Source: Neophaeotheca triangularis
Taxonomy: Eukaryota
Reading direction: 5' to 3'
NCBI GenBank assembly: GCA_054600435.1
Contig: BAAIJX010000011.1
Span: 372,001 to 436,000, forward strand
DNA length: 64,000 bases
Under the pieces are notes generated by a model that had not been told where the DNA came from, ran no database searches, and was given only the letters and a program-made list of their open reading frames with translations. A program made the translations under genes and the position numbers. Shown piece after piece: positions 3,658 to 58,399 of this stretch. Each line of letters begins with the position of its first letter. Position 1 is the first letter of the stretch.

Positions 3658-4591
3658 TGCTGTTGGCTTACCAGACGTGGAGGTGTTGTGTCGTTGGTAG
3701 GGAATTGGTAGGGACGTAGTAGGTCAAAGAGGGTAAACTTACACAAAGGTAGAGAGGAATCGGGTTTATGTGCGGTCGCGAGTGAAGAAGAAGCGAGGTG
3801 AGTTTGAGAGGCGTGGCTTCCCGATTCTTGTGTAAAGTGCTCGACGGGGAAGTTGCGCCTTCCTTCGCAAGCTTGAGGTTATTCGCTTTAATTCCACCTC
3901 ACTCGATCTTGCTAAGGGGAAATTGAGACTTGGGGTGAGATCAAGGGAGAAGTGTAGTCCAGGCACAGGTTTGCACTCTTCACTAGCGAAATCATGGAAT
4001 GTTCGAGGGCTTGCAAACGAACAGCTTCCCAGGTATATGGAAAAACAGAGCCCTGCTGCTCGGATGTAACAATGAGGTCACTGTTGAGGCGGCGAGTGAT
4101 GGTGATGCCAGCCTCACGGAGTTATAGAAACGATTGGAGCGAGTGGGATTGATCACAGCCAACGAGATTGGTGTAGCAGTATTGGTAGAGGAAGGTGTTA
4201 CAAGAAGCAAGATGGCTGTCCAGACGTTCTAGAGCACATGCTTCGAGAGGAGTGAAGTGCATGTCATGGTTTTGCGCCATCGGCAGACCTCCCCTTATCA
4301 TTTCATAACAGCAGTACCTAGGTACCTACCTAGCCAAGCTAGCCAGCTTGATTACTGTCGGCAGCCACATGGTAACACATGGCAGACCACCGGCAATCGC
4401 GGGCAGGGCAGCTTTCGGAGGTGAGTACCGACTCCGCTGTCAAGCCTGCCCCTCTCGGGCTTGCCTGGAGCAGAGTTGCGCGCTTCGCGAGACGCGTCTA
4501 AACCTCCGAGCTGCCCTCTGGATGTGATGGTGATCGTTGACATCGTTCCGAACTTGCACTACGAGGACTCCGACAGACAGACAACAATAAC

Positions 4592-5824: not shown

Positions 5825-6666
5825 CGAGGTGCTGGGATTACGACCGTCTGTTCGATCGAAACCTTCGCAAGAGGAGAGACGCTGGCTGCTGCGAGCGAAC
5901 GTCCTGCTGGCGTGATTTGATACTGGAACGACTGACGAGATCAAACGCTAAGTAATATAACATTTGTCCTCGCTGAGTACGTCAATAAATTCCCCCTCTG
6001 TGTGGCCTATGAAGACTGAGACTAACCAGGTTTGTCAAGACAATCGAGATAGCAGATCCACTCATCATCCTGCCATGCTCTCAGATCAGCCCCCTCCTGC
6101 TCTGGATCTATCGTCGTCGCATTGATGCTTAATATTAGTGCCTAGGTATATAACAAAAGCCACCTGCAGCATTGCAATTTGCAACTGGGTACTTCCAGTT
6201 TCTCCTCTCCAATACCAAGGACTGGGCAAGCCTGCTTGTTGGATCTAGCAAACCGGCACGCGATAGATAGCGAAGTGTGGCGTCTTCTGTGAATTTTTGA
6301 TTGTTCGAATAGTTATTGCAGTACTACATATACGTGAACGATTACCATGCACTTTCGATGATTCGTTAACCGGACAGATCCGTGAGTTATTCCCCAATAA
6401 CGTGTAATGTGATTAAAAGTCCATGTACCTTAGGTACCTTATTAGATGTCGGGTGGCCGAGACTCGCTAGTGCTGTCGCGGACCTGCGGTAGCTCACAGG
6501 TCTGCCGAGACTTCACATACGAGGAGCTCGGCACGTCACGATCTCTCTCTCCGGCTCCCAACCGCATTTCTCCTTTCACAATCTCCACAGTTATAATCGC
6601 TGAACTCAACTTCGCCGTTGAGCTTCAGCTGTCACTACCTTTGCGACTTCGCCTTGCCTCGACGCA

Positions 6667-9498
6667 ATGGCAGCTTCTCACGAACAAATCAATCAAGTCT
6701 CTGGACCCGACTCCATGAGCAAGCCGCCACAAGCTGGAGGCTCCAGCATGGACGCCGGTGGCCCCTCTTCAGGTAGACCGCCAATGAACAGTAGAAACCC
6801 GTCCACGGTTCCGGACGGCCAGGGAGGAGGGGGCGCGAAGAAAAAGCGCCACCGCGGCGGCAAAAAGCGTCGCAATCGTCGCCAGAGCTTCCTCGCACCC
6901 TCAGAGGCCACTGACACGGCCAACGAAGAGCCTCAGCAAAGACCTACGCTGCAGAATATCGCGCGACCGTCGGCGCAGGAGGCTAGCTTTTACCGCTTGC
7001 AGAGTGGTGCTGGGAGTAATACAAGTCTGGACAGTGAGGCCTTGCTCGATCATAGGGATCAAGGGCCGAGGCAGCGATCGAGGAGACAGAGTCTTCAGGG
7101 CAGTTTTGCTCGCGCCAGTCTGCCATTCAATCGCCAACAGGGACGGGGAAGCCAGACTTCTGGGCAGGCCGGGGGATTGCGCTCGCGGATGGTCGGCAGA
7201 CAGAGCGCTGTCGCTGAAGAGGACGACGAAGATACCACTGATCGGACGCCATTGCTGTCAGCTTCGCGACCAAACACTGGATCTCGACAGGGCTCATCGA
7301 CCACGCAAGGCGGGTATGGGGGAATGTTCCGCCGTCGTGGCTCGGTGGCTTCAGGTTCTTCTTCGAAAAAGAAGGGAATGAACAGTCATCGCCATGCAGA
7401 CATTGATGAGGAGGAGTTTGATGTGAATAACCCGCCTTCTGTGCCTGGCTCGCCTAAGCTCGGATCTCTTGACGACATGATGATCAATGAGATGTCGAGC
7501 TCCGGTCCTGGCAAAAACCGCGACGCCGTGATTAACATTGATGGCGGTGACGAAGCGGACGAGCATCTTCTGTCCAGCTCTTCGGAGAGCTTGAAACGGA
7601 GGGCTACCGTTGCCGACTTGGCCGAGCGAGACGTTTGTTTCCCTGTTGATGCTGGGTTGTCTGAGATTGGTGAGGAAGATGATCATCACTCCACTGCTGG
7701 GTCGAGTGGACGAAAGTCTAGACGGCGCGGCAGAAGGCAGTGGCCTGATCTTGAGATGCTTCAAGAGTGGAGTCGCGAGGAGAAGGAAGAGAGGACGCAA
7801 GAACAGATTCGTGCGAAGAAGATCTCTGAGCCCGTCCTTGTTGGCGGTCGCTTGAGATCTCGCAAGCCCATTTGGCATCGCGAGGAAGATGACATGCCAT
7901 TCCGCTTTACCTACTTCAACGAGATGCTCGAGGAGACGATCCATGCTAGGGCGATTTCCGACCTTTGCCAGGATGGCACAACTTTTAAAGATCTATTCCT
8001 ACCGGATCCTTTGGAGTACAGTGACGACGACACCGAGGACGATGAGTTTGGGGAAGAGTCCGCCATGCATTGTCATCCTACTTCGCACTCGATGAACGGC
8101 AGGGTCATGGGTGGCCATCAGTCTAAGAAGCAGTCTGTCCCGAGCGAGCGCGGTGACCCAGATACCAGCAAATCAGGTACAGGCTCGAACACACCTTCTG
8201 GTCCACAAGAACGAGGACAGTCCCGGAAGCGCGCATCTAAGAGATACGGCCCCCGTCCTACGTTTTGGCTCGACGTTCTCAAACCCACAGAGATGGAGAT
8301 GAAGGTGCTCGCCAAAGCATTCGGTATCCACCAGCTTACGACTGAAGACATTCTCATGGAAGAGCCTCGCGAAAAAGTCGAGCTCTTCCAAAACTACTAC
8401 TTCATCAACTACCGCTCCTTTGAGCAAGACAAAGACGATGAAGACTACATGGAACCCATCAACTTTTACGGTGTCGTTTTCCGTGACGGCGTCATCACCT
8501 TTCACCACGCCATGACGCCCCATCCAGCGAACGTCCGCCGCCGTATCCGCCAACTCAACGACTACATGTCCCCAACAGCCGACTGGATCAGTTACGCCAT
8601 CATCGACGACATTACCGACGTCTTTGCACCGCTGGTCCAGCAGATCGAATCCGAAGTCGACGAAATCGACGACGACATCTTATACCTGCACACGCATAGC
8701 GGTGACGAAAAGAAGAACTTGGAGGAAAAGCACCGCAACTCCGACGGTAAGAAGTCGAATTTCGAGAAAATGTCTGGTCATCCCAACAATTCCGAGCGTG
8801 GTCAAGCCTACAACAGCAACAACAATGGCAACAACACCGCCAACTCCAACTCCAACTGCAACGGCGGTCGTGAGATCCAAACTCAGGGCGACATGGGCGC
8901 GGAAAAAGCTAAGGGCGAAAAAACCGCGGGCGAAACAGGAGGCGATATGCTGCGTCGCGTCGGCGAGTGCCGGAAAAAAGTCATGGGACTATACCGCTTG
9001 CTCGGTAACAAAGCAGACGTGATTAAAGGTTTCGCCAAACGTTGCAACGAGCACTGGGAAGTCGCACCCCGCAGTGAAATTGGCCTGTACCTGGGAGACA
9101 TCCAAGACCACATCGTGACCATGACGGGGAACCTGAGTCACTACGAGAAGTACGTCACCCCCCTTTGTTTGCCACAAACTGCGTCAAATGTCAAGCTAAC
9201 ACACTCTGTCCTCCGTCGCAGCCTCCTCAGCAGAGCCCACTCCAACTACCTCGCGCAAATCAACATTCGCATGAACGAGCGTGCCGAGCAAACGTCGGAC
9301 GTGCTGGGCAAACTGACCGTTCTTGGCACGATTGTGCTGCCTATGAACATCATCACGGGAATGTGGGGAATGAACGTCTGGGTCCCGTGGCAAGGGGATG
9401 AGGGCAATTTGACGTGGTTTTGGCTAATTACTGGCGGTTTGGCGCTTTTTGGTGTCGTGAGCTTTTTTATTGCTAAGAGAGTTTATGGGATTGTTTAG
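6667..9498 (+). CDS. ALR1: CorA-family Mg2+ transporter, Alr1-like
   Basis: Motifs FWLDV, FGIHQLTTEDI, YLGDIQDH and the GMWGMNV signature, followed by two TM helices. One in-frame intron at 9150-9221 (GTACGT...GCTAAC...GCAG). Confidence 0.92.
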   Translation: MAASHEQINQVSGPDSMSKPPQAGGSSMDAGGPSSGRPPMNSRNPSTVPDGQGGGGAKKKRHRGGKKRRNRRQSFLAPSEATDTANEEPQQRPTLQNIARPSAQEASFYRLQSGAGSNTSLDSEALLDHRDQGPRQRSRRQSLQGSFARASLPFNRQQGRGSQTSGQAGGLRSRMVGRQSAVAEEDDEDTTDRTPLLSASRPNTGSRQGSSTTQGGYGGMFRRRGSVASGSSSKKKGMNSHRHADIDEEEFDVNNPPSVPGSPKLGSLDDMMINEMSSSGPGKNRDAVINIDGGDEADEHLLSSSSESLKRRATVADLAERDVCFPVDAGLSEIGEEDDHHSTAGSSGRKSRRRGRRQWPDLEMLQEWSREEKEERTQEQIRAKKISEPVLVGGRLRSRKPIWHREEDDMPFRFTYFNEMLEETIHARAISDLCQDGTTFKDLFLPDPLEYSDDDTEDDEFGEESAMHCHPTSHSMNGRVMGGHQSKKQSVPSERGDPDTSKSGTGSNTPSGPQERGQSRKRASKRYGPRPTFWLDVLKPTEMEMKVLAKAFGIHQLTTEDILMEEPREKVELFQNYYFINYRSFEQDKDDEDYMEPINFYGVVFRDGVITFHHAMTPHPANVRRRIRQLNDYMSPTADWISYAIIDDITDVFAPLVQQIESEVDEIDDDILYLHTHSGDEKKNLEEKHRNSDGKKSNFEKMSGHPNNSERGQAYNSNNNGNNTANSNSNCNGGREIQTQGDMGAEKAKGEKTAGETGGDMLRRVGECRKKVMGLYRLLGNKADVIKGFAKRCNEHWEVAPRSEIGLYLGDIQDHIVTMTGNLSHYEKYVTPLCLPQTASNVKLTHSVLRRSLLSRAHSNYLAQINIRMNERAEQTSDVLGKLTVLGTIVLPMNIITGMWGMNVWVPWQGDEGNLTWFWLITGGLALFGVVSFFIAKRVYGIV

Positions 9499-18716: not shown

Positions 18717-20606
18717 ATGTTGCAGACGGCGCGGACGAGGCAGGTCCTATTGCTGTGTGCCGTGCTGTTCGTCCTGACTTTTGGCTTCCTGATATCGCAT
18801 AACGTATGTACCTCCTCCTATAAGGCTGAACATAGGGCTGAAACCCCATCATCGTTCTTCACCACGCCAATCCCTTTCCTATTAATGCATGTTCATGTTC
18901 ATGTGACTGACTGACTGATTGACTGACATTGCCCATCTCTACAGCATGAACGCATAAAAGACACCTATCACGAATACACCCGTCCCAATACCAATACCAA
19001 TACCACTCCTCCTCCTCCTCCTCCGCCGTCCGCTCCATCCTCCCCCGCCCCTGAGAAACAAAACACGGAGACTGCGAACAAACCATCCACTCTCACGCCC
19101 AGGCCGAGGACGGACAAGCTCCATGTCTTGCTGCCCGCTTCCAACCCGGAGGTCAATCTCTGCAAAACGCTCTTGACCTCTGCCATACTCGACTACCCCA
19201 TCCCGACTCTGATAGCATGGAACGAGGATTTCGATAAGCGTGAGTGGGCTGATGTTGCAGAGCTCTTTGGTGGGAATAAGCACTGATAGGTTGTAGATTA
19301 TTTGCTCGGGTCCGGAAGCCATGTAGCAAAGATCACCCGAGTCCTGGAATGGATGAACGCCCAAGACGCTTCAGCCGACGACGATCTCGTTATTATGATG
19401 GACGCTTACGGTTCGTTCAATTACTATGACAACCCTGGGAATAAGCAAACTCATCTGGATGCAGATATTTGGTGGCAACTGCGTCCCGAGGTGCTCATCG
19501 ACCGCTACTATGCCATCAACGACGCTGCCAATGCCCGCATCCAAGAACGGATGGGCCGCGCGGCCGACATCGAGGGCATCGAGCAGACCATTATCTTTGG
19601 CGCCGGTAAGCGATGCGCCCCCAATCAGGTACACACAGTCGCCTGCTACCCCATTCCGGAGTCGCCTCTCCCCGATGATGTTTACGGCGCCAACACCGAC
19701 ACGGTCATGGGACGCAACAAATACACGAGCTTGCGCCAGAGATACTTGAACTCGGGCTACGCCATCGGGCCTATGAAGGAGATGCGCGCCATGTTCGAGC
19801 GCGCCCGGGAAAAGGTCGAGGCAATGAAAGACCAAGAGGACTTTGACAATGGCAGCCATGGCTCGGATTTCATGTACCATGGCAGCGATCAGTCCATCTT
19901 CAACATCATGCTCGGCGAGCAAGAGTTCCAGCGAGAAGTCATGAGGCGGAGACATCTCACGGATGAGGAGAGGGCAGCGGGCAAGGAGAAGGCCAATCCG
20001 ACATACATCGAAGGCACCCTTGTCGACGACCCCATCAACCCCAGTTTCACTCACGAAGAGATGGAGCACAAGGAGGGCAAGCCCGACGAGTTCGGCATCG
20101 GACTCGACTACTTCTCCGATCTGGGCCAGCAGACGGTCAACGCCGAGGACGACGCCGGATACATGGTCTACGGCCGCGATATCGAGGAGCAAGTCCCCTT
20201 CCGACACATGTTCGACTGCCCTTCGCGCGTCAAGGGCGAACTGCCAAAGGAAGTCACCGACAACCCCGACCCCTACGCCCTGGAAGCTTCCAACGAGCAT
20301 ATTCCCTGGACCGACGTCCCCCTGTACACCAACGTCTGCTTGGACCGCATCCCCGTCATGATCCACCACAATGGCGTCAAAGAGGCACGCGAATACGCCT
20401 GGACGCTGACGTGGATGCAGCCGCACGCGCGCAGGATCATGGAGTCGATTGTCAACGGCACAAGTCCGGAAGGCTCGTCGGAAGAGAAAAAGGGCGGTGC
20501 GCACTTGCCCGACGGCCAATATCTGAGCTGGGGCGAGCTCTGCCCCTTTGAGTACGAGCATGAGATCTTCCGCGATGTAGAACCCCTGCCTAAACCCGGG
20601 CGCTAG
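18717..20606 (+). CDS. Type II membrane PLOD/LH3-like glycosyltransferase, paralog A
   Basis: Exon 1 MLQTARTRQVLLLCAVLFVLTFGFLISHN is a signal anchor. Introns at 18804-18944, 19240-19296 and 19411-19464. The spliced product has a Pro/Thr stem and the motifs MMDAYDIWWQ, IIFGAGKRCAP, YLNSGYAIG, SDQ, GLDY and IHHNG. Confidence 0.8.
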
Positions 20607-20808
20607 AATCTGAATTCGAGGCGACTGTATTAGAGATGCAGAGAGAAATGCACCCATGGCTGGCTGTGGATCGCAAAGAAAAGACACGATATATATAGCA
20701 TTGTTTGTAGTTACTGCCAGTTAAAGACCTTTTAATACATGCACGCCATGCCGTTCAATCCACCACCAATCAACCCAAACCCCCCCGACCCCAGCCAAAC
20801 CCAACCCA

Positions 20809-22512
20809 TTAGTGATTCGCCGGCAATTCCCAAGGCCCCTTGCCATCCCTAAACACCTCTTCGTGGTAGTCTCTGCAAATCTCATCATACCGCAACCAGC
20901 CGTCGGGCGAGCTCACGGCACTGGAGCCCGCACGCGCCCCGCCCTTCCAAATCTCCTCGGGCCACCACTCCCGCACCGTCGATTCGTTGTACCCGCTCAC
21001 GGCCACGGGCGTGATGGGCGCGTAAATGTAAGCGTCGTACAGGGTGCGGACGTGCGATTGGAACCAAACCAAGGGCCACCACGTCTCGCGCAGTTTCTTG
21101 CGGCCGTCGCGGTGGGCGTTGTGGTGGATGACAGCCGGGGTGATGCCGGTGTAGACGTCGGTGAGGAGGGGGACTTCAGTCCACTTTGTCCAGCGCGGGA
21201 GGCTTCTTTCGTTGGAAAAGGTCCAGAACGGTGGCACCGAGACCTCAATGTCTTTCTGGATGCTGTTCATGCGCTGGTGGTAGGTGTCGATGCCACGGGA
21301 TTCTTGAGCTTCTTTGAGCTGCGTTTCGTTGCTGAAGACCGCCCACTCGGTGTCGTCCTCGGCGAAGACAGTGTTGAGACCGATTTCGCTGCCGTAGTCG
21401 ACGCCGATGCCGAATTCAAAGGACCCATCGTGGCGCGCAGCAGCCTTCTTGCGGACTTCTTCGATATGCTCCGGGTTAAAGTGCGAACGCGAGCCATAAC
21501 CGGAGACTTTGGCGCGGACGCGTTCAGAGGGAGAAAGGGCGTCTCGCCGCAGCATTTCGCGGTAGACTTCTTGGTCGCCGAAGACGTGGCTGAAGATGTA
21601 TTGGTCAGAGCCGAAGTTTGCTTCGGTCTTGGCCTGTTCAAGGGTCTGGTTAAAGAGCTTGCGCATGGCTCTGACGGTGCCGATGCCGACGCCGGAGTTG
21701 AGGTACCGCTGCCTGTTCTTGATGTAGGGGTTGTCCTTGTTGCCGACATCAGTGTCGGTGTCTGGGCCATAGATGTCGCTGACCAGAGATGACTGCGGGA
21801 CGGCGTAGCAAGGCGGGTCTTTCTCCGACCAAGGCCAGCAGCGCTTTTGGCAGCCAAAGATGATTTCCTGGTGGATGTTGTACTTGTCGACGACGCTTCC
21901 CAGGTCCCGTCTGGCCCTTGCGTCCGCCCTACGGTTAATTGCAAAGTAACGGTCCACGAGCGTCTGCGGACGTAATTGCATCCAGATGTCGAAACCGTCG
22001 ACCATCAAGACCAAATCGTCTTGGTGGCTCTCGTCAAAATGGTCCACAAACTCATAGATTCCTGAGATCTTGTGCAAATGGGAGCCACCGTCAACGAGCT
22101 TCGGGTCGCTAAAATCCTCGCCCCAATTGATAATGACCGGACTCGGATACCCCAGGACCCCGGCACTGACCAAAACCTTGCACAGGTTAGAATCGGGGTG
22201 ATCTGCTGGTATCACGATATGCAGATTCGCCGGCCGGCTGGAAGAGCTGGCAGGGACCGATGGCATGTGGTAGCCGCTGTCATGCTTGATTTTGATCAGT
22301 CACTTGGTTGCTGAGCTGCATCGGTGAAGGGTTCGAGGACCTACCTGCATCAAGTACAGCCCGAGCGCGCATAATGACAAGGCAAATGCTATCACTACCT
22401 TGCCTTGCCTCGCGAAAAGCGTGCTCCAGCCTGTGGCGCTGCCATCACCACCTCTACTGCCAACACGGTGGTACGCGGGCCTTTGCTGGCCGCCCATCCC
22501 AAAGATTCCCAT
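20809..22512 (-). CDS. Type II membrane PLOD/LH3-like glycosyltransferase, paralog B
   Basis: Exon 1 from ATG 22512 encodes the TM VVIAFALSLCALGLYLMQ. Intron at 22285-22344 (GTAGGT...ACTGAT...AAG). Motifs MVDGFDIWMQ, IIFGCQKRCWP, YLNSGVGIG, SDQ, GVDY and IHHNA. Confidence 0.8.
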
Positions 22513-23223
22513 CAACTCAGGGCGGGAGAAGGGCAAATGAAGTGCTTCTCTCGTCGGAAAGGGGGGACTGGAACGGCAGAAGGGATTCGTAGAGTAAGTC
22601 GGACCTCCAAGAACGCACGCAAACAGTACGAGGGTCGTGCAAGATCAGACGGCGTCGTATGTTACAGTAGATGGGTGTTAGTCTCCAGATATCATTGTAT
22701 TGTGCTCACGTGTCGGTAGGTAGACAGCCTCTTGCCAGCAGGAGGTCTGATAAGGTAGTTCTGTTGCTCGAAAAGTATAGGTAAGGTACAGTAGGTAGGC
22801 GTAGTAAGCTGATGATCCGGGAGGCGGTTTGGAAGGCATGGACGGCCCGCGGAAGCCAGGGCGGAGCAGTCCGAGCTTGTACACACATGCTCTTCGCCGA
22901 GTCGGCCGAGACCTCAGCCCCTTTGCCAAGCTTCCTTACCCTTGAGCTGTCCTCATCCTCAGTTCCTGGGCCTTTCCTGTCGAGCCTGAGCGAATCGACT
23001 ACACACCGGACGTAATAGTAGTATTAGATTGGAGAACAATAGTTACACGTGTAAACGGCTAGACGCTCAAGCAAGCTGGTTGACAGAATTGAATCTATAC
23101 GAGGGTATCAAAATTTCGACCAGGCTATTAAATACTACGCCCTGTAGATCAAACAAATATTCTACACACCAACTCCGCGCTGAAGCAGGCCCCCGCTTGT
23201 TGTCGTTTCCCTCGTTGCGTGCC

Positions 23224-24888
23224 TCATCCGGGCTGTGAAATTGGATGGAAGTAACTCTCGTCCAGCACTTGGTACATGACTTCTTCAGACCCCCGGCAAA
23301 GCTTTCGCCATGTGTAGAAGCCTCCAGTGTCGCTCCACGCACCAGTTCGGCCGCGCATGCTGATCTCATCGGCGTCTTCGGGTTCGGCGTTGTACCAGAG
23401 CATGCCTGCAATCTGCTCCTCGGAGATCATCCTTGTATCTTGTTGGCTGCTAGCCTGACGCAGCGCTTCGGCTTCTGCCTGGAACCACAGCTTCTGCCAC
23501 CACAATTGCCGCAATCCCTTTTCGCCAGTGAAGTGCATCGCGACCGGCGCTTCATTCGTTATCGCGTTGTAAAGCAGTTCCACGTCCTCCCACCCTACTT
23601 TGTGGTTACCCTGAGGGTCCGCAAGTTGTCGAGCTTCGAATGGGCGCTGAGAGTCGCGAATGTCCTGCGCCAGCTCGAACTCGTACGGACTACCCGCGGT
23701 GTTGGTGTAGTTCAGATCTCCCTGGAGGCCGCGAACGTGGACCGAGTCGACTGGCCTCATCCAAGCAAGGTATTGCTTCCAAAAGGCAAGTGTCTGAAAG
23801 ATGCTAGACTTGTAATCGATTCCAATGTGATACTCGGTCCTGTCGGTCTCCAAGGGAATCGAGGGAACGTTCCTGATCACTTGAACAGAATCATTGCCAA
23901 TTTCGTTCCCGTACCGCACTTGCTTGTACTCTTCCATGAGTTCTGGCTTTTGAGTAAGCCTGGCGTAATTTTGCGCCCCAAAAAGCTCGGCGAAGTAGAA
24001 CTGGTCAGAGTCTGTCGTGTGATTGACATGAATTAGGTCCAACGTATCCCTGAACAGGTCTCTCATATCTTGCACTGGCCCCATGATCGTTCCAGAGTTC
24101 AGCCATTTCGGCATGTGCTGCTCCTCTTTGCTGCCTGCTGTCCTTGGGCCGAAGGCGTAACGTGGGAGGTTGAATGCTTGAGGCACTGCCCAGCAGGCGG
24201 GTCTACTAAAATCAATCGGCCAACAGATTTTGTCTGGGCCGAAGATTATCGTCTGCCTCATATCGTGCGCCTCGAAAATCTCAGCTCCGAACTGAGCTGC
24301 TGTGTGTTCATCTGCTTCTCGGTTGAGAGCATAATATCTCTTGATCAGCACGTCGGGCCGTAGTTGGAACCAGAGATCGTAGCCATCCACAATGAAGACC
24401 AAGTCTTCGCCATACTCGCTGCTTGTCTCCAACTGATCCAAATAGCCCAATATTCCCTCTACCTTTGCCAAGTGCTGGACGTAGGCATTCTCCTCTTCTG
24501 CGTCGCCGAAATTGATAAAGACGGGAGTAGGATAGCCCAGGATTTGCGCCGATAAAAGAAGCTTGCAAAGGTCCTCGTTGCTACTCGTCGCGGGTATGAG
24601 AAGGTGGAGACGACCCTTGTGAGGATGCGCCGAGTTGGTGTTGCTGGGAATCGAGGTGATGGCGTCCTTGAGCGCACCGGCACCGTCTAATGTAGCATCC
24701 TTTGCTTTGTTGACATCCTGGCTGACCGCGGCGGGGCCGCGAAGCGCGACAAAGGTAAGCGAGACGCCAATGAGGATAGCTACGGCGACGGCAGCCCGCA
24801 CGAGTTTCGAAGTCGCTATTCTCTTTAGCGTGCTCTCATGCGGACCAAATCTGCCAGAAGTCGAGAAGCGTTCCTTCAACGAAAGCAT
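23224..24888 (-). CDS. Type II membrane PLOD/LH3-like glycosyltransferase, paralog C
   Basis: Intronless, ATG at 24888. TM AAVAVAILIGVSLTFVAL; motifs IVDGYDLWFQ, IIFGPDKICWP, WLNSGTIMG, DSDQFYF, GIDYKSSIFQTL and MHFTG. Confidence 0.82.
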   Translation of the reverse strand: MLSLKERFSTSGRFGPHESTLKRIATSKLVRAAVAVAILIGVSLTFVALRGPAAVSQDVNKAKDATLDGAGALKDAITSIPSNTNSAHPHKGRLHLLIPATSSNEDLCKLLLSAQILGYPTPVFINFGDAEEENAYVQHLAKVEGILGYLDQLETSSEYGEDLVFIVDGYDLWFQLRPDVLIKRYYALNREADEHTAAQFGAEIFEAHDMRQTIIFGPDKICWPIDFSRPACWAVPQAFNLPRYAFGPRTAGSKEEQHMPKWLNSGTIMGPVQDMRDLFRDTLDLIHVNHTTDSDQFYFAELFGAQNYARLTQKPELMEEYKQVRYGNEIGNDSVQVIRNVPSIPLETDRTEYHIGIDYKSSIFQTLAFWKQYLAWMRPVDSVHVRGLQGDLNYTNTAGSPYEFELAQDIRDSQRPFEARQLADPQGNHKVGWEDVELLYNAITNEAPVAMHFTGEKGLRQLWWQKLWFQAEAEALRQASSQQDTRMISEEQIAGMLWYNAEPEDADEISMRGRTGAWSDTGGFYTWRKLCRGSEEVMYQVLDESYFHPISQPG

Positions 24889-29077: not shown

Positions 29078-29190
29078 ATGCCCTGTCGATCTGGAGCACG
29101 ACGCCCATGAGGTCCTTCAACGTGGCTGACTACGCGCCTCCCGACTCCTGTTGGCGCTGTACCTCCCACAGACGGCGCCCTACGCCATGA
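29078..29190 (+). promoter_or_regulatory. Two chained uORFs overlapping the histidine kinase start
   Basis: uORF1 at 29078-29110 (MPCRSGARRP*) and uORF2 at 29107-29190 (27 aa). Each stop overlaps the next ATG as ATGA. Confidence 0.55.
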
Positions 29191-32100
29191 ACCCGCACCC
29201 GCCAAAGTCACCCGCTAGTCGAGAATCCGACAACGACGATGCCGACCAAGCCGGCCAGTATTCAAACAAAAGACCACCTGCGCCCACAAGGTCATCTGCT
29301 GGGAGTGCAGGGCGACCAACTCTCATGAGGTCACCACCTGGTCGTCTGTCCCAGATCACGAGGTCTCCGGACGAGGGCGAAAGATGTCCGTCTACAGCGA
29401 CAGATCAGGGAGCTGCTGGCGATGGGGCCAACGAAAGTGAAGTTGCGCGCCAGGCAGGCAAGACTACCGGAAATGACAAGCAAAAAGGCAGGGCCCAAGA
29501 CGCCTCAACAGCTGAGGGAGACATTGCTAAGCTTAGAGATGCAGTGAACGCGAGGCTCATGATGCAGCAACGACAGCGGTCAAGCTACGGCTCAGCCGGT
29601 TCGGGCCATACCACGCGCGTGTCGCCGATCAAGGAGGAAGATTCTGCTACCATGTCGCCCTCGCTCACAGCGGCTTTCGCGAGCCCAGGCGATGTGCCTC
29701 CAGTGAAGACTTCTTCTTCGATGTCCACCGAATCCACCGAAAGCGCCAAAACTATTCGCGGTTCTGTCCCTGGAACACCCGCAGCAAATGCGCCCTTACG
29801 TACACCTTCTTATCCTTTCCCATATGTGCCAGGCACTCCACGAAGCTGGCCGTCACAGTTCCATCAGCCCTTTACAAACTTGTCGCCCACGGTCACTGCG
29901 CGGCCCAGTGGCGACCGAGATACGCCCGGAGCAAGTAGTGGTCTTATGTCAGGAGGTACCACTCCCGGTGCTGCTGCCGCGGCTTTTATGCCTGGTAGCG
30001 CCACCTTTCAGCCGTCTGAAGATCCTCGATATCCAACGCCAAATATCTACGACATGGTGTTGAGACTCAACTGCGAACCCGGTCTCGAGGCTTGGTGGGC
30101 TATGGTGACGAATCTGATGCATGATGATTACAAGGCGGAACGAGTGACTTTGGTCATGCCTGCTGACCCTACAGACATTGAGAACGTACCGTGGGGACAG
30201 AAGGCTACATTCAGTATGAATGGCCCGGAAGAGTTTGTGCCACCCCGATACACGTCAGATCAGCGCTCTACTCGGCCGCAGCCAGTCCGGCCAGATCTCA
30301 CACTGAGGGAGCCATCCACCGAGATGTCGGATGTAAGCCCGCAGAAATTACACCCCGAAAGGTTGCGTCCGGGCTTGCAAGCGCGACACTCGTATGCCGG
30401 CCACGGCCGACCGCCAGCTCGCGACGTGAGCAACGAAGTTTCCGAAAAGTCCGCAGCTAGACCACTTGGCCCACAGCGCATGGCAACCCATCACGTAGGA
30501 ATGAAAGGCGATGCCCCGCCTGCGACGAATCTAACACGAATGCTTCCTTCTCAGCAAAGCATTCGCCATACATCACTCAGCGATCCCGAATTTAGCACCG
30601 TTGCCGGCGAGAGAGACGCCGGCCCGTACGCTGAGATGTTTTCATCGTTGCGTGCGCTCAATCACGAGACTCGGCCTTTGATTGAACCAAGTGGAGTCAA
30701 CCGCGTATTGGAGAGAGGGCGTGTAGTTACCGTTACGCGAGACTACGTTGCTGAGAGTTCAGATTCAAGCAATGGTACTAGTTCCGCCGGAGGCGGCAGC
30801 GATGCAGGCTTGACAGATGCTTCCAGAAGATCGGAGCTAGATGCCAAGCAACCGTTTTTCAGCAATTATCGAGGCGTATTCACGGCCGAGAACCGGTTGG
30901 AGATGAGACGTGATTATGAAGAATACGAACAGCAACCTGCCTCTCCTTGGGCCCAATCTCCAGCTCCGTCTCCAGCGATACAAGCAGATGAAGAGAGGAA
31001 TCCCTTCTTCGCATCTGAAGAACAACACGTCGAAGAGTCTTTCAATCCGGAGGGGACACCCAAGGATTATTCCCAGTACGGACAGGTGGAAGCGATTGGC
31101 ATCGACCGAGCAAGCACTGTGATACATGTGCCGCTGGTGCACCCAACTCTATCTCAACCGATGCAGTCACTCCGCATGAGCACGCAGCAGGAAGAATCCT
31201 CTGAGATACCCCCTCGCAACGATACACTGGACTATGAGCGACGGGCTCCAATTGCGGTGCTATCTATCCTAAGCTCAACTGTACCTTACCCACAAAATCT
31301 CACGCACTCTCTTAAGCTTCTGGGACCCCACCTCGCAACGTCCTTTGCAACTTCTCAACAATTCTCGACCGCGAGCCAACAGCAACTCAGCATTCGCCAC
31401 CGCCGCACGACATCGGGCCACCCAGCCAGTTCGGCGCCAATGACTATAGAGCCCACCACGCTTGATGACATCGTCAATGCGGAACTTGGCGAGCCTTCCG
31501 GATCCATGTCAGGGAGTATAACGAGCCCTTCCGACTACTCTGGCAAATCGCGCTATAGCCCGAACAACTCGTTAGTGGGTACCCCTGGCTGGGATCCTGC
31601 TTCTTATGGATGGACCCGATCAGTGACAGGGACCCCGGCAAACAATACCTCTGAGATGGTGGATAGCTACTTTGATGCCAAGAAGCGGACTGGCCAGCGC
31701 CCTGCTAGTGGCACTGCCCCCGGTTCTTCGGCGGCTCAAGTAACCCCAGCGAAACAGGCAAGAAGAGCGCCGAGTCAAGAAGATTCATCGCGAGCGAATA
31801 AGCAATCGAGCGAGGAGCCATTCAGGGCACAGGGGAGTGAACGAAAGACACGAACTCTTTCTTACAGCAAGGAAGAGAATGCGTCTTTGCGGAACGTGCT
31901 CGCCACAGAAAATAGCCCGACGCAAGCTGCTGAGTCCGGGCATCCATCCAAATCGGCGATGAGACAGACGATGTTACCTGCATCAGCCGCTAACGACCAC
32001 AAACACTCCCTCCTTCATTCATATGGAGCGGATTATGCAACTTCTTTCGGTTCTGTACCCAATCCCAACGTGGCTCCACTCGCGTCGCCCCGCACTGTCC

Positions 32101-35100
32101 ATGGAAGGAAATCTTCACATTCGGAGTCCACTGACATGCCGCCACCCTCTGAGCGACTCCTACGAACCATTATCGACTCCTTGCCTGTCCAGATCTTTAC
32201 GGCTGCGCCCGAAACCGGGAAAATGACCTGGGTCAACTCGAAATTTTTGATATATCGAGGACAAGAGTCCCGCCAAGTCTTGAGCGAGCCGTGGGAAGCC
32301 ATTCATCCCGAGGATCGAGACGAGTACATGAATTCATGGAATCGATCTTTGCGCACTGGGCAACAACTGCAGCAGAAAGTTCGGCTCCAGCGCTTCGACG
32401 GCAGCTATCGTTGGTTCTATGTCCGCGCAGCACCGCTCAAGGACAAACGCCAGCATATCGTGCACTGGATTGGTACAAACATGGACTTTCACGAACAGCA
32501 TATTGCAGAGACCAATTCTGCCAGACAACAAGAGACAGCGGCTTCGGAAGCCAAATACCGTGCACTTGCCAATTCGAGCCCGCAGATTGTCTTTGCGGTC
32601 AACAAATCCGGAGGAATCACCTTCTGCAATACTCAATGGTTCTATTACTCCGGTCAGACCGAAGCTGAAGCCTTGGGCACGGGGTTCATGGATTATGTCC
32701 ATCCAGACGATCTGGTAAAGTGCCGGTTGCCATCGTTCCAAGATGGATCCAACGAGGCCACCAACGTCCCGACTTCGATACCCACCGAGCTCAGAAGACG
32801 CAAATCACTGTCTCAAGCATCTTCAAGTGGTTCTTCAGAAACTGAAAAGGGCGCAATGTCCAGCTCTGATTCATCAAGCTCGCCGAGTGTGCAAATGCCT
32901 CAGCGTAAGCTGTCTGAGCTTGCAAGTACCGGCATTCTCAAGGTATCTCGAGATGCCGATGGCAGACCTTCGTACTCGACTGAGGTACGCTTGAAGTCCA
33001 AAGAAGGCGAGTTCAGATGGCACCTTGTCCGCGTGCTGCTTGCAGAGCCACTCGTGCAGGCTCACAACGAGGAGGAAACATGGTATGGTACCTGCACGGA
33101 CATCAACGACCACAAGACTCTAGAGCGTGACTTGAAAGAGACCATGGACGAGAAGTCTCGGTTTCTATCAAACATGTCTCACGAGATTCGCACGCCATTG
33201 AACGGGATAACGGGCATGGTCAACTTTCTCATCGACAGCAGCCTCAGCTCTGAGCAAATGGAGCATGTCAACATCATTCGTGCAAGCACGGAGGGCCTTC
33301 GAGGACTGATCAACGATATCCTCGATCTCTCCAAAGCCGAGGCCGGTATGATCCAGCTCAACATGGATTGGCTGCATGTACGCTCTCTTATTGAGGAAGT
33401 CAATGACTTGACGTCTGCAATGGCCATCGATAAGGGCTTGGAGCTGAATTACCTAGTCGATGAAGATGTCCCGGCCATGATCAAGGGCGATCGTTTCCGC
33501 ATTCGCCAGATCTTACTCAACGTCATAGGCAACGCTATCAAATTCACAATAGAGGGCGAAGTTTTTGTGCGCTGCAGCACATTCACAGATGAGGATGAGC
33601 CACCATCGAAGCGCGAGATCTGCATCAAGTTCGAAGTCATTGACACGGGACGCGGCTTTACCGACCGAGAAGCACAACACCTCTTCAAGCGCTTCAGTCA
33701 AATCGACGGCAGCAGTACTCGACAGCACGGTGGCACTGGTCTTGGTCTCGTTATTTCACGCCAATTGGCCCAATTACATGGAGGCGACATGAGTGCCAAA
33801 GGCGTTCCAGGCAAGGGGGCAACGTTTACCTTTTTGATCAAAACAGCACTGCCATCAAAGACTGATATGCCACCAAAACCTCCGCCTACTCCAGGGCCAG
33901 GGGCGATGCTGGATACACCTGCAACTGTTCCAGCGATTCCGCCAATCACTGGTGGGAAGATCCCGACCCCTCCAGGTATCACGTCTAGGGCAGCTTCATT
34001 ATCTAGTCAGTCTCCTGGCAACGAACAAATCTCGCCTAGGACGATCGACGAGCAGTTGATTCGTACTGCCTCTCCTTCTATTGCTTCTCCAGACGCGGCT
34101 CGCGGTTCTCCAGCAATGTCTTCAGCAAGTTCGGACCCATCGGTGCGGTCACTCGCTCGTACAAGTATTCGGTCCGAACGGTCTTCAGCATCCTCGCTCC
34201 AAGTAGAGGCCACCGTCGCCAACCCGCCTATGAAGTTATCGCTCCCGAGCAGCCCTCGCCTGTCGCAGTCGGAAACTCCAGGGTCTTTGTCGACGGGTTC
34301 CATCGAGTCTGGGACATCGCAGGACACTGTAAGACCCCTTTCGCCTAAAGAAGGCAAAGTTTTGTCCCCTGGAGGATCAAGTCTGGTACCCCCGATGTAC
34401 TCGATCCTCGTGGTCTGCCCCCTCAGGTACAGCCGAGATGCCACGGTTCAGCACATTGAAAAGACACTGCCCAAAAGCATTCCCCATCAGATCACAGCCC
34501 GCGAGACTTTGGCCGAATGTCAAGATATGATTGGCGGCGAAGATCCCGTCGTTTTTTCGCACGTCGTCGTCGTGCTTCAAGATGTTAGGGAAATCGCAGC
34601 TCTGATGGACAAACTTCTGTCCTCGCCATCCCATTCTACCACCACCATTGTCATCATCACCGATCTTTCGCAGCGCCGCAGGATCATGGAGCAAGCGAGC
34701 TCAAAGCACGACTACGATGCCCTCATCGACATTCGGAGGTTGCGCTTTGTCTTCAAACCCCTGAAACCCTCTCGCTTTGCCGTCATCTTCGATCCACGAA
34801 AGGAAAGGGAAATGAGTACTGACCGCAACCAAGACAGCGCACAGCAAGTTGCCACCAGCCAGAAGCAAGTCTTTGACGAACTCACTCTCAGACTGCGCGA
34901 CAAAGGCAAGCGCGTGTTACTGGTCGAGGACAATAAGGTCAATCAAATGGTGCGACTCTCGGCTTCCCTCGTCAGCTTACTCTCCCAATTCCTCGGTGCT
35001 AACACAAACGATACTAGGTGATCCTCAAATTCCTCTCCAAAGTCTCAATCCCTGTCGAAACAGCCCTCGACGGCGTACAGTGCACGGACAAAGTCTTCTC

Positions 35101-58059: not shown

Positions 58060-58390
58060 CCTTAGGTAGTAGGCGTGCAAGCGTGCTGCTACTGAGGTGA
58101 ATGGCTGACATGGTTTATTATTAAGTCAGCCGGACCCTCTACGTTAACTTAACACCAGTGGCCTGTGCTTATCCAAGGTTCATGCATACAGCACAAGCCC
58201 ATGTACCTTCCACCTAGACACTCACTGTACGATACACTATACACCACACCAAATTAGACGCTCTTGCGACTCCTGCGAATGCCATATCGTCTCGCCCGAA
58301 TCTAACACATATCCAATCGACACCCACACTGAGACTCTTTGGCTAGACGGCTGGGAGTCGGCATCATTACGTCTGCATCTCCCTTCCGCC

Positions 58391-58399
58391 ATGACATGA
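58391..58399 (+). promoter_or_regulatory. Minimal uORF (ATG ACA TGA) overlapping the kinase start
   Basis: In GCCATGACATGAG, the uORF stop overlaps the in-frame ATG at 58396. Confidence 0.5.

What the first reader, a model, noticed from the sequence alone, without database searches (positions are those of the whole stretch)
18717..24888. Cluster of three diverged collagen-glycosyltransferase (PLOD/LH3 GT)-like type II membrane enzymes in a fungus
Seen in the sequence: three adjacent genes (A+, B-, C-) each have an N-terminal signal anchor and stem, then the same ordered motifs: LH(V/I/L)xxPA..LCK; D(A/G)(Y/F)D; IIFG..K.C(W/A)P; (Y/W)LNSG..(I/M)G; SDQ; G(L/V/I)DY.S; PxxxHxx(G/A). Established knowledge: the glycosyltransferase domain of animal lysyl hydroxylase 3 has the same ordered motifs (DSYD, FSAE..CWP, FLNSGGFIG, DDDQ, LDHKSRIFQNL, VHGNG), which bind Mn2+ and UDP-sugar. 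Paralog C reads IDYKSSIFQTL at the corresponding place. Fungi have no collagen, and no lysyl hydroxylase domain is present here. Inference: these are secretory-pathway (Golgi-type) GT-A enzymes acting on an unknown acceptor such as a wall or exopolysaccharide glycan, glycoprotein O-glycans or a glycolipid. The paralogs are highly diverged, have different intron counts (3, 1, 0) and differ around the acceptor-site acidic patch (GSDQ, GSDQ, DSDQ). This argues for an old, retained cluster with sequential or heteromeric roles, i.e. a candidate uncharacterised glycosylation pathway.
Basis: partly seen in the sequence, partly recalled or inferred. Interest (0 to 1): 0.78.

Follow-up and report, generated by a model that had tools for sequence, protein, structure and literature searches.

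The report
Three LH3-type sugar transferases, clustered
A black-yeast-like fungus carries three old, neighbouring copies of a membrane-anchored sugar-adding enzyme related to the one that puts glucose on animal collagen. In other fungi the same genes sit beside the genes that make and import UDP-glucuronic acid, so together they probably build an undescribed acidic sugar chain.

Summary
Window 18717-24888 (Neophaeotheca triangularis, Dothideomycetes) holds three paralogous genes: A (+, 3 introns, 545 aa), B (-, 1 intron, 547 aa) and C (-, no intron, 554 aa). Each has one N-terminal signal anchor and the same ordered motifs.

They belong to Pfam GT_PLOD. B and C score above the curated cut-off; A does not. 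Models of C and of an A-clade orthologue match the human LH3 GT domain and mimivirus R699 at Z 21-23. The next folds score about Z 12. The Mn2+ ligands (DxxD and His) are kept in all three clades. Acceptor-side residues differ by clade.

A, B and C are ancient orthogroups found across several classes of Pezizomycotina. Locus tags and metagenome contigs show the genes stay adjacent in many fungi.

New here: in 11 of 17 long related loci the C gene lies within 10 kb of a UDP-glucose dehydrogenase and a TPT-type nucleotide-sugar transporter. The window itself has neither.

Best reading: three retaining, secretory-pathway transferases acting on one glycan, probably one containing glucuronic acid. 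A B-C heterodimer is predicted (0.76 against 0.01 for the best control) but not shown.

No member has been studied at the bench, as far as my searches reach. This scan had noted stand-alone LH3-type enzymes before in other organisms, but not this cluster.

The parts
18717..18803 (+). Gene A exon 1: start codon, short basic tail and signal anchor (VLLLCAVLFVLTFGFLISH)
18945..19239 (+). Gene A exon 2: Pro/Thr-rich stem and first GT strand (LHVLLPA..LCK)
19297..19410 (+). Gene A exon 3, ending in DAY + G, the first part of the DxxD metal motif
19411..19464 (+). Gene A intron 3: 54 nt, in frame, GTTCGT..CAG, splitting the DxxD motif. Several public gene models read through it.
   Evidence: No RNA cover.
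19465..20606 (+). Gene A exon 4: rest of the catalytic domain (IIFGAGKRCAP, YLNSG, GSDQ, GLDYFS, His at 20364-20366) and stop codon TAG
   Evidence: RNA-library contigs at 19746-20013 and 20120-20270.
20809..22284 (-). Gene B exon 2: whole lumenal domain (DGFD at 21999-21988, His motif PAVIHHNA at 21138-21115) and stop codon TAA
   Evidence: RNA-library contigs.
22285..22344 (-). Gene B intron, 60 nt, GTAGGT..CAAG
   Evidence: Skipped in one RNA-library contig.
22345..22512 (-). Gene B exon 1: cytosolic tail and signal anchor (GKVVIAFALSLCALGLYLM)
23224..24888 (-). Gene C, one exon, 554 aa: signal anchor, helical stem and GT_PLOD-type GT-A domain (DGYD at 24387-24376, His motif PVAMHFTG at 23547-23524) with fungal insertions and a C-terminal extension
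   Evidence: RNA-library contig at 24253-24433.

Best explanation
A, B and C are three anciently diverged paralogues of the LH3/R699 (Pfam GT_PLOD) family. They are type II membrane proteins whose catalytic GT-A domains face the ER/Golgi lumen.

Each should bind Mn2+ and a UDP-sugar through a DxxD motif with an aromatic residue, a conserved Lys, an S-D-Q motif and a His. By analogy with LH3 and R699, each should transfer the sugar with retention, giving an alpha linkage.

The donor and metal residues are kept in all three clades. The acceptor-side residues are fixed differently in each. I therefore infer that they catalyse different, probably successive, steps on one secretory-pathway glycan, possibly as a B-C heterodimer.

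In other Pezizomycotina the same genes are clustered with UDP-glucose dehydrogenase and a TPT-type nucleotide-sugar transporter. The glycan is therefore most likely built with UDP-glucuronic acid imported into the Golgi, that is, an acidic wall, exopolysaccharide, glycoprotein or glycolipid glycan.

Shown: homology, fold, motif conservation, age of the paralogues, conserved clustering, and transcription with splicing of B.
Inferred: retention, donor, acceptor, pathway order, localisation and dimerisation.
For: Family and fold
- Pfam GT_PLOD is above its cut-off for B and C.
- The AF2 model of C has pLDDT 85.3 and pTM 0.83.
- Foldseek's top hits are all LH3 or R699, with E 1e-10 to 1e-8.
- VIA gives Z 22-23 to LH3 (rmsd 2.5-2.9 A, 224-241 residues aligned) and Z 21 to R699. 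The next hits, GT6, GT8-like and A64R, score about Z 12.
- The A-clade orthologue P0254 models at pLDDT 84.3 and gives Z 23.0 to 6wfv, with 227 residues aligned to the 233-residue chain.

Active site
- Collinear profile alignments to LH3 and R699 map DxxD, K89, E141/W145, D191, and H253/N255. Residue roles come from passages read in PMC6082870 and PMC10342707.
- Metal ligands are kept in all clades. First Asp: 88/93 in A, 96/102 in B, 111/114 in C. Second Asp: 92/93, 93/102, 111/114. His: 92/93, 96/102, 112/114.
- Four Cys are conserved in all clades.
- LH3 E141-equivalent: Gly 90/93 in A, Gln 101/102 in B, Asp 114/114 in C.
- LH3 W145-equivalent: Ala 74/93 in A, Trp 89/102 in B, Trp 113/114 in C.

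Age of the paralogues
- Three clades have SH-aLRT 99-100. A and C each span Dothideo-, Eurotio-, Lecanoro-, Sordario- and Arthoniomycetes, and C also Leotiomycetes.
- B also holds cluster genes from loci that look non-Dothideomycete (FastTree).

Clustering
- Consecutive tags for all three genes: Saxophila (001304-06), Septoria linicola (G120950-70), Recurvomyces (006245-47), Friedmanniomyces (10721-23).
- B-C adjacent: Cercospora zeina, Elasticomyces, Acrodontium, sp. NU459 and a second Recurvomyces pair.
- Of 17 non-redundant loci of 15 kb or more with a C-type gene, 15 hold a second paralogue, 11 hold UGDH and the same 11 hold a TPT transporter.
- UGDH and TPT are the only neighbour families that recur across lineages.
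- The window's own flanking genes are absent from all 76 loci.

Expression and complex
- RNA-library contigs lie on A, B and C, and the B intron is spliced.
- B-C complex: score 0.76, best of 3 controls 0.01. That mark was reached by 51 of 78 solved complexes and 2 of 108 mismatched pairs. The runs agree in at least 64% of contacts and partner pLDDT is at least 84.
Against: - The window itself (64 kb) has no UGDH or TPT gene, and its genome is not held. A link between this trio and UDP-GlcA rests on other fungi.
- 6 of the 17 long loci lack UGDH. Four of them (L002, L003, L005, L006) are close relatives of one another and carry only C followed by B.
- LH3 and R699 use UDP-Glc. In LH3, UDP-GlcA is only a weak inhibitor (PMC10342707 passages).
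- The position equivalent to LH3 Asp190 is Ser in all three clades, and LH3 D190S loses Glc-T activity. So the sugar pocket is not LH3's.
- A lacks the equivalents of LH3 E141 and W145, both needed in LH3. A may have another chemistry or be non-catalytic.
- A is below the Pfam cut-off.
- The predicted B-C interface residues are less conserved than the average position: 0.42 against 0.54 in C and 0.46 against 0.59 in B.
- A pass in the complex test does not tell which family member binds. R699 itself is a homodimer (PMC12279948 abstract), so the pass may partly reflect family likeness.
- The locus lineages are inferred from similarity, and the loci are not independent samples.
- No enzyme assay exists.
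Confidence: 0.6

Rival explanations
1. The enzymes use UDP-glucose, as LH3 and R699 do. They add alpha-1,2-glucose (kojibiose-type or Glc-Gal-type linkages) to wall or glycoprotein glycans. The nearby UGDH and transporter in other fungi serve another step, or are neighbours for other reasons.
For: - The closest solved relatives are both UDP-Glc-dependent alpha-glucosyltransferases. R699 also makes kojibiose (PMC12279948 abstract and passages).
- The C clade keeps an acidic residue and a Trp at the LH3 E141 and W145 positions.
- The window trio has no UGDH nearby.
Against: - UGDH and TPT recur next to these GTs in 11 of 17 long loci, in several lineages and arrangements. They are the only recurrent neighbours.
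- Ser replaces LH3 Asp190 in all clades.
- Three divergent paralogues are unlikely to share one donor and acceptor.
Confidence: 0.2
2. A is a non-catalytic or regulatory paralogue that partners the active enzymes, rather than a third transferase.
For: - The A clade has Gly and Ala where LH3 has the essential E141 and W145: 90/93 and 74/93 (W145A data).
- A is below the Pfam cut-off.
Against: - The A clade keeps DxxD, His, Lys, S-D-Q and the N255-equivalent Asn at 88-93 of 93.
- Its fold matches LH3 at Z 23.
- Such conservation of the donor site is not expected in a scaffold.
Confidence: 0.12
3. The three genes are redundant duplicates with the same activity, kept together only by tandem-duplication history.
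For: - They are adjacent paralogues.
- Aureobasidium and Recurvomyces carry extra copies.
Against: - The split predates the classes of Pezizomycotina.
- Each clade has its own fixed acceptor-side residues.
- Identity is only 28-40%.
- The flanks differ between lineages while the genes stay together.
Confidence: 0.06
4. They glycosylate hydroxylysine-linked galactose on fungal collagen-like proteins, as LH3 does on collagen.
For: - Family membership.
- Collagen-like proteins are reported in certain fungi (PMC12279948 introduction).
Against: - There is no lysyl hydroxylase domain and no GT25 partner among the ORFs scanned.
- No G-X-Y repeat of 7 or more units occurs in the window or in any of the 76 loci.
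- Acceptor-side residues differ from LH3.
Confidence: 0.02

Closest known systems
Human LH3/PLOD3 N-terminal GT domain (galactosylhydroxylysyl glucosyltransferase; PDB 6fxk, 6fxr, 6wfv, 8zgc)
   Same: - GT-A fold at Z 22-23.
- DxxD motif with an aromatic residue, plus a His metal site.
- Lys89-equivalent, CWP loop, LNSG and D-x-S..FQ motifs in the same order.
   Different: - The fungal proteins are stand-alone and membrane-anchored. They have no accessory (AC) or lysyl hydroxylase domains.
- From the ranges I estimate about 150 residues of insertions and an extension of about 85 residues with a conserved Cys.
- Ser replaces Asp190.
- The E141, W145 and N255 equivalents vary by clade.
- There is no collagen context.
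Acanthamoeba polyphaga mimivirus R699 (collagen GGT and kojibiose synthase; PDB 9dyt, 9dzs, 9e92; PMC9546862, PMC12279948)
   Same: - A stand-alone LH3-type enzyme without a hydroxylase.
- Z 21-22.7.
- Best sequence-profile hit in the PDB, E 0.067.
- Dimeric (abstract of PMC12279948). A dimer is also predicted here.
   Different: - R699 is soluble and viral, and is set beside collagen genes.
- It is specific for UDP-Glc.
- The fungal genes form three membrane-anchored paralogue clades tied to UGDH and a transporter.
Retaining GT-A enzymes of the GT6 and GT8 type (alpha-1,3-GalT, GTA/GTB, UGGT catalytic domain, LARGE1) and PBCV-1 A64R
   Same: General GT-A fold with a metal site, Z about 12.
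   Different: They score about 10 Z units below LH3 and R699 and do not share the ordered motifs.
Cryptococcus neoformans UDP-GlcA supply (UDP-GlcA transporter Uut1; PMC5790919)
   Same: Same concept: cytosolic UDP-GlcA is imported by a nucleotide-sugar transporter for lumenal glycan synthesis. I read passages of the paper.
   Different: - It is a basidiomycete, and I saw no gene clustering mentioned in the passages read.
- The transferases are different.
- I did not test whether the cluster's TPT is related to Uut1.
UGD plus glycosyltransferase-group-1 two-gene cluster of Wangiella dermatitidis and other Eurotio-/Sordariomycetes (PMC4059230)
   Same: A fungal UDP-glucose dehydrogenase gene kept next to a glycosyltransferase gene (passages).
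   Different: - The transferase family differs (Pfam group 1, GT-B type, no signal anchor mentioned).
- No transporter is described in the passages read.
- It is not the cluster described here.

Membership tests
Pfam PF25342 GT_PLOD (LH3-type GT domain) | Score above the curated gathering cut-off (27 bits) | tested here: met
   B scores 34.1 bits (33.5 for the full-length protein) and C 32.3 bits. A scores only 14.6 bits on its long ORF, and there is no hit for P0241. A is placed in the family through 40% identity to B and through fold.
Pfam PF25342 GT_PLOD (LH3-type GT domain) | GT-A fold closest to the LH3 GT domain | tested here: met
   C model: Z 22-23 to LH3 and 21 to R699, with the next hits at about 12. 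A-clade orthologue P0254: Z 23.0. B was not modelled alone.
Pfam PF25342 GT_PLOD (LH3-type GT domain) | Non-canonical DxxD with an aromatic residue (LH3 D112, Y114, D115) plus His253 as Mn2+ ligands | tested here: met
   Aligned. Conserved in 88-114 members of each clade. The geometry in the model could not be inspected because no coordinates were available.
Pfam PF25342 GT_PLOD (LH3-type GT domain) | Glycoloop with the uridine-stacking Trp75 | tested here: inconclusive
   A conserved W/Y/F (C residue 127) lies a few residues from the aligned position of Trp75. The alignment there is not reliable.
LH3 glucosyltransferase activity (GGT) | Asp190 and Asp191 of the poly-Asp helix | tested here: not met
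   The Asp191 equivalent is conserved, but the Asp190 equivalent is Ser in 92/93, 94/102 and 114/114 members. LH3 D190S has no detectable Glc-T activity (PMC10342707).
LH3 glucosyltransferase activity (GGT) | Glu141, Trp145 and Asn255 at the acceptor and sugar site | tested here: not met
   C has Asp/Trp/Thr, B has Gln/Trp/Asn and A has Gly/Ala/Asn. No clade keeps all three.
PLOD/LH multidomain enzymes | GT domain followed by an accessory domain and a 2OG/Fe(II) lysyl hydroxylase domain | tested here: not met
   Only GT_PLOD is found in the three proteins. The aligned part of LH3 is the GT domain.
Collagen glycosylation system | Collagen-like substrate, lysyl hydroxylase and GT25 galactosyltransferase in the genome or neighbourhood | tested here: not met
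   None among 29 window ORFs or 126 ORFs of related loci. No G-X-Y repeats. The whole genome could not be searched.
Numbered CAZy GT family | Assignment by CAZy | not testable with these tools
   No CAZy library is on hand. The LH3 and R699 papers I searched contain no mention of CAZy.
Type II Golgi/ER glycosyltransferase | Short cytosolic tail, one signal anchor and a lumenal catalytic domain with disulfides | tested here: met
   One hydrophobic segment in each protein, after a basic tail. Four Cys are conserved across clades. Localisation itself was not tested.

The most novel reading that the evidence does not exclude
Pezizomycotina carry an ancient, so far undescribed Golgi glycan-synthesis cluster. 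It consists of UDP-glucose dehydrogenase, a dedicated nucleotide-sugar transporter and up to three LH3-type retaining transferases, with B and C working as a heterodimer. It makes the glucuronic-acid-containing wall or extracellular polymer whose nature in ascomycetes has remained unknown. The window shows the three-transferase core of this system after its separation from the supply genes.
Probability: 0.35. Interest if true: 0.75.

Novelty: new variant of a known kind. Interest (0 to 1): 0.6.

Why it matters
Glucuronic acid has long been reported in the walls of Alternaria, Fusarium, Neurospora, Aspergillus and other fungi. The polymer's nature is described as unknown (passage of bioRxiv 10.64898/2026.02.21.705424).

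A conserved cluster that joins UDP-GlcA synthesis, a transporter and three uncharacterised lumenal transferases gives concrete genes to delete and enzymes to assay. These genes occur in tractable fungi, including Aureobasidium, Zymoseptoria and Alternaria relatives.

The finding also shows that the 'collagen' glucosyltransferase fold has a large radiation in fungi. The profile search found 1300 representatives at 50% clustering, with no collagen context in the window or the loci examined. This matters for how GT_PLOD hits are annotated.

Tried and rejected
- The window's own genome is not held. UGDH, TPT and further paralogues elsewhere in N. triangularis could not be sought.
- phmmer of C alone against the PDB gave only chance hits, E 0.7-0.9.
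- This scan had no earlier notes on this sequence or place.
- tblastn of 14 window flank ORFs against the 76 loci gave no hit.
- tblastn of UGDH and TPT against the window gave no hit.
- No G-X-Y repeats were found.
- Of the 16 long family representatives, 12 matched only GT_PLOD and 4 matched no family, so no fused domain was found.
- Predicted B-C interface residues are not more conserved than average; they are less so. Conservation therefore gives no support for the interface. A surface-only comparison was not possible without coordinates.
- RNA: only one metatranscriptome held part of the stretch (share 0.18). Most of A, the A introns and most of C have no cover, which shows nothing either way.
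- Literature: seven searches found no paper on fungal GT_PLOD proteins or on a UGDH/transporter/LH3-type cluster. Subscription journals are not searched.
- My recollection of Fusarium and Hypocreales acidic galactofuranans with alpha-Glc or GlcA on O-2 of galactofuranose, and of a GlcA-containing Aureobasidium heteropolysaccharide, could not be checked. I do not use it as evidence.
- The EPS review PMC4621709 (passages) gave nothing specific.

Full report
**What is there.** The stretch 18717-24888 holds three genes.
- A, + strand: exons 18717-18803, 18945-19239, 19297-19410 and 19465-20606, giving 545 aa.
- B, - strand: exons 22512-22345 and 22284-20809, giving 547 aa.
- C, - strand: 24888-23224, giving 554 aa.

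All introns are short GT..AG introns of 141, 57, 54 and 60 nt. My B model equals, residue for residue, the NCBI protein MBLNU230_g0902t1 of Neophaeotheca triangularis. This is a Dothideomycete of the order Neophaeothecales. A and B are convergent, 202 bp apart. C lies 711 bp upstream of B on the same strand.

Each protein has one hydrophobic segment near the N-terminus after a basic tail, the layout of a type II signal anchor. Over the long exons A and B are 40% identical and A and C 28%.

**Family and fold.** Pfam finds only GT_PLOD (PF25342). B scores 34.1 bits and C 32.3, against a curated cut-off of 27. A scores 14.6, below it.

Profiles of the fungal family hit only LH3 (6wfv) and mimivirus R699 in the PDB. 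The E-values are weak (0.07-0.2).

An AlphaFold2 model of C (pLDDT 85.3, pTM 0.83) finds LH3 and R699 as its only strong Foldseek hits (E 1e-10 to 1e-8). VIA-align gives Z 22-23 to LH3 (rmsd 2.5-2.9 A, 224-241 residues) and Z 21 to R699. GT6, GT8-like and A64R enzymes follow at Z about 12.

I therefore modelled an A-clade orthologue, P0254 of Cercospora kikuchii, which is 61% identical to A's last exon. The model has pLDDT 84.3 and gives Z 23.0 to 6wfv and 22.7 to R699. The GT-A/LH3 assignment therefore holds for the A and C clades by fold, and for B by Pfam and by 40% identity to A.

**Active site.** I read passages of PMC6082870 and PMC10342707. They say:
- LH3 binds Mn2+ through Asp112, Asp115 and His253.
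- It stacks uridine between Trp75 and Tyr114.
- It needs Asp190, Asp191, Trp145, Glu141 and Asn255.
- Lys89 lies near the sugar.

I aligned 309 family members (93 A, 102 B, 114 C). The two Asp, the His, the Lys, the S-D-Q motif and four cysteines are kept in all three clades.

Three positions are fixed differently in each clade.

| LH3 position | A clade | B clade | C clade |
|---|---|---|---|
| E141 | Gly 90/93 | Gln 101/102 | Asp 114/114 |
| W145 | Ala 74/93 | Trp 89/102 | Trp 113/114 |
| N255 | Asn 91/93 | Asn 88/102 | Thr 98/114 |

The Asp190 equivalent is Ser everywhere. I read this as a shared donor and metal machinery with three different acceptor or sugar pockets. The four conserved cysteines fit a lumenal domain. 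This is inference.

**Age.** A maximum-likelihood tree of 91 rows gives three clades. The rows are the three window proteins, 84 named proteins chosen from the three hit lists, and 4 metagenome sequences.
- C: 31 rows, SH-aLRT 100.
- A: 28 rows, SH-aLRT 100.
- B: 28 rows, SH-aLRT 99.
- A and B are sisters (98).

The A and C clades each contain Dothideomycetes, Eurotiomycetes, Lecanoromycetes, Sordariomycetes and Arthoniomycetes; the C clade also contains Leotiomycetes. Among named proteins B is Dothideomycete only. In a FastTree run with 24 added ORFs from metagenome loci, the second GT of Chaetothyriales-like and Leotiomycete-like clusters also falls in the B clade (support 95). The tool warned about long branches there.

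The profile search found 1300 representatives at E 0.001 or better, and 649 at 1e-30 or better, in the 50%-clustered library.

**Clustering.** Locus tags in the names returned show the following.
- All three genes on consecutive tags: Saxophila tyrrhenica, Septoria linicola, Recurvomyces mirabilis and Friedmanniomyces simplex.
- B next to C: Cercospora zeina, Elasticomyces elasticus, Acrodontium crateriforme, Dothideomycetes sp. NU459 and a second Recurvomyces pair.
- A next to B, with C five tags away: Zasmidium cellare.
- A and C three tags apart: the lichen fungus Chrysothrix.

A scan of metagenome contigs gave 76 loci, which form 56 groups at 95% nucleotide identity. Among the 17 groups that hold a C-type gene and at least 15 kb:
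- 15 hold a second paralogue. L034 and L059 do not.
- Three (L018, L019 and L054) hold A, B and C.
- 11 hold a UDP-glucose dehydrogenase within 10 kb.
- The same 11 hold a TPT/UAA-type nucleotide-sugar transporter. L042 has a weak twelfth.

Examples:
- L054: B, TPT, UGDH, A, C.
- L018 and L019: B, C, TPT, UGDH, A.
- L046: TPT, UGDH, C, B. Its C is 99.8% identical to an Aureobasidium pullulans protein.
- L012: UGDH, TPT, C, B. Its B gene groups closely with an Alternaria atra protein.

In an all-against-all comparison of 1283 ORFs, UGDH (16 loci) and TPT (18 loci) were the only neighbour families recurring across lineages. The rest were shadow ORFs or local synteny. None of 14 flank ORFs of the window occurs in any locus, so the GT genes travel together while their surroundings change.

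A public Friedmanniomyces gene model fuses a TPT transporter to the B orthologue, which indicates adjacency there too.

The window itself has no UGDH or TPT. The four related locus groups L002, L003, L005 and L006 carry only C followed by B.

**Expression.** One marine metatranscriptome holds contigs on parts of A, B and C. One contig skips exactly 22285-22344, my B intron. This shows a spliced B transcript. For A and C the contigs lie inside exons and could also be DNA.

**Complex.** A prediction of the lumenal domains of C (88-554) and B passed its test.
- Score 0.76; best of 3 controls 0.01.
- The mark was reached by 51 of 78 solved complexes and 2 of 108 mismatched pairs.
- The runs agree in at least 64% of contacts, and partner pLDDT is at least 84.

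The tool warns that close relatives of a true partner also pass. R699 is a homodimer (abstract of PMC12279948). The interface includes a B-clade-specific segment (P..PVAVSG). Overall, though, the interface residues are less conserved than the average position in both clades. I treat the heterodimer as a lead.

**Mechanism.**
- Most likely (0.6): three retaining, Mn2+- and UDP-sugar-dependent lumenal transferases act on one glycan. By comparative context, that glycan is built with UDP-GlcA brought in by the clustered transporter.
- Main rival (0.2): they are alpha-glucosyltransferases like LH3 and R699, and the UGDH link concerns another step.
- Less likely: a non-catalytic A, simple redundancy, or true collagen-type glycosylation. 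For the last I found no hydroxylase, GT25 or collagen repeat.

**Known or new.** The homology itself is already in databases: Pfam pre-computed hits, and the cluster name 'PLOD GT domain-containing protein'. Earlier notes of this scan describe stand-alone LH3-type enzymes in Naegleria, Ostreococcus, bacteria and phages. I did not check those notes.

I found no paper on the fungal proteins or on the UGDH/TPT/GT cluster in seven searches. Subscription journals are outside the library.

A different fungal UGDH-glycosyltransferase pair (UGD plus a group-1 GT) is described for Wangiella (PMC4059230, passages). A 2026 preprint states that glucuronic acid occurs in the walls of Alternaria, Fusarium, Neurospora and others, and that the polymer is unknown.

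**Limits.**
- There is no genome for the window's species.
- Locus lineages are inferred from similarity.
- The loci are not independent samples.
- Donor, acceptor, retention, localisation and dimerisation are all inferred.

Noticed in passing
window 19411-19464; proteins P0241, P0243, P0244, P0248, P0249, P0253, P0260, P0273, P0279, P0307: The third intron of gene A is in frame (54 nt, no stop) and splits the metal-binding DxxD motif. Of 55 family proteins matching the motif pattern, 42 have DxxD intact, 10 carry an 18-residue insert there and 3 a 17-residue insert. So public gene models of several species read through it. The 18-residue inserts resemble each other at the protein level (G[SA]F[ND].Y...N..H..A), which is odd for an intron. 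L054 has an unambiguous intron (58 nt by my count, with stops and a frame shift) at the same position and phase.
   Followed up: partly
P0219 (Friedmanniomyces simplex B0A55_10723): A public gene model joins a TPT/UAA nucleotide-sugar transporter (about 350 aa) to a truncated B orthologue. It is probably two neighbouring genes merged, and it fits the transporter-GT adjacency seen in metagenome loci.
   Followed up: partly
P0139, P0151, P0263, P0277: Four proteins labelled Quercus suber (cork oak) are 55-60% identical to the fungal B and A proteins. They are most likely fungal contamination of the plant assembly.
   Followed up: no
P0311: An A-clade protein of Purpureocillium lavendulum is named 'dihydroorotate dehydrogenase' by its sources. 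The name does not fit the family.
   Followed up: no
L060-L075: A fourth, single-copy branch of the family is about 30% identical to A, B and C alike, and is sister to C in the midpoint-rooted tree. It stands alone, without UGDH, TPT or a second paralogue, near GH72 glucanosyltransferase genes in some loci. Its Pfam GT_PLOD score is higher (49.9 bits) than that of A, B or C.
   Followed up: partly
L076 and L046: Aureobasidium-like contigs show two separate loci: TPT-UGDH-C-B, and A-B with a second B-type copy. The B clade is therefore duplicated in that genus.
   Followed up: partly
window 1765-3723 (-), 6622-9495 (+), 29130-35018 (+), 58333-63999 (+): Other genes in the window include a GT20 trehalose-phosphate synthase, a CorA-type Mg2+ transporter, a large PAS-containing hybrid histidine kinase, and a kinase-like/AAA/GAF protein running off the window end. 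Of these, only the CorA and histidine-kinase ORFs were among the 14 flank ORFs tested against the 76 loci, and neither recurs beside the GT genes.
   Followed up: no
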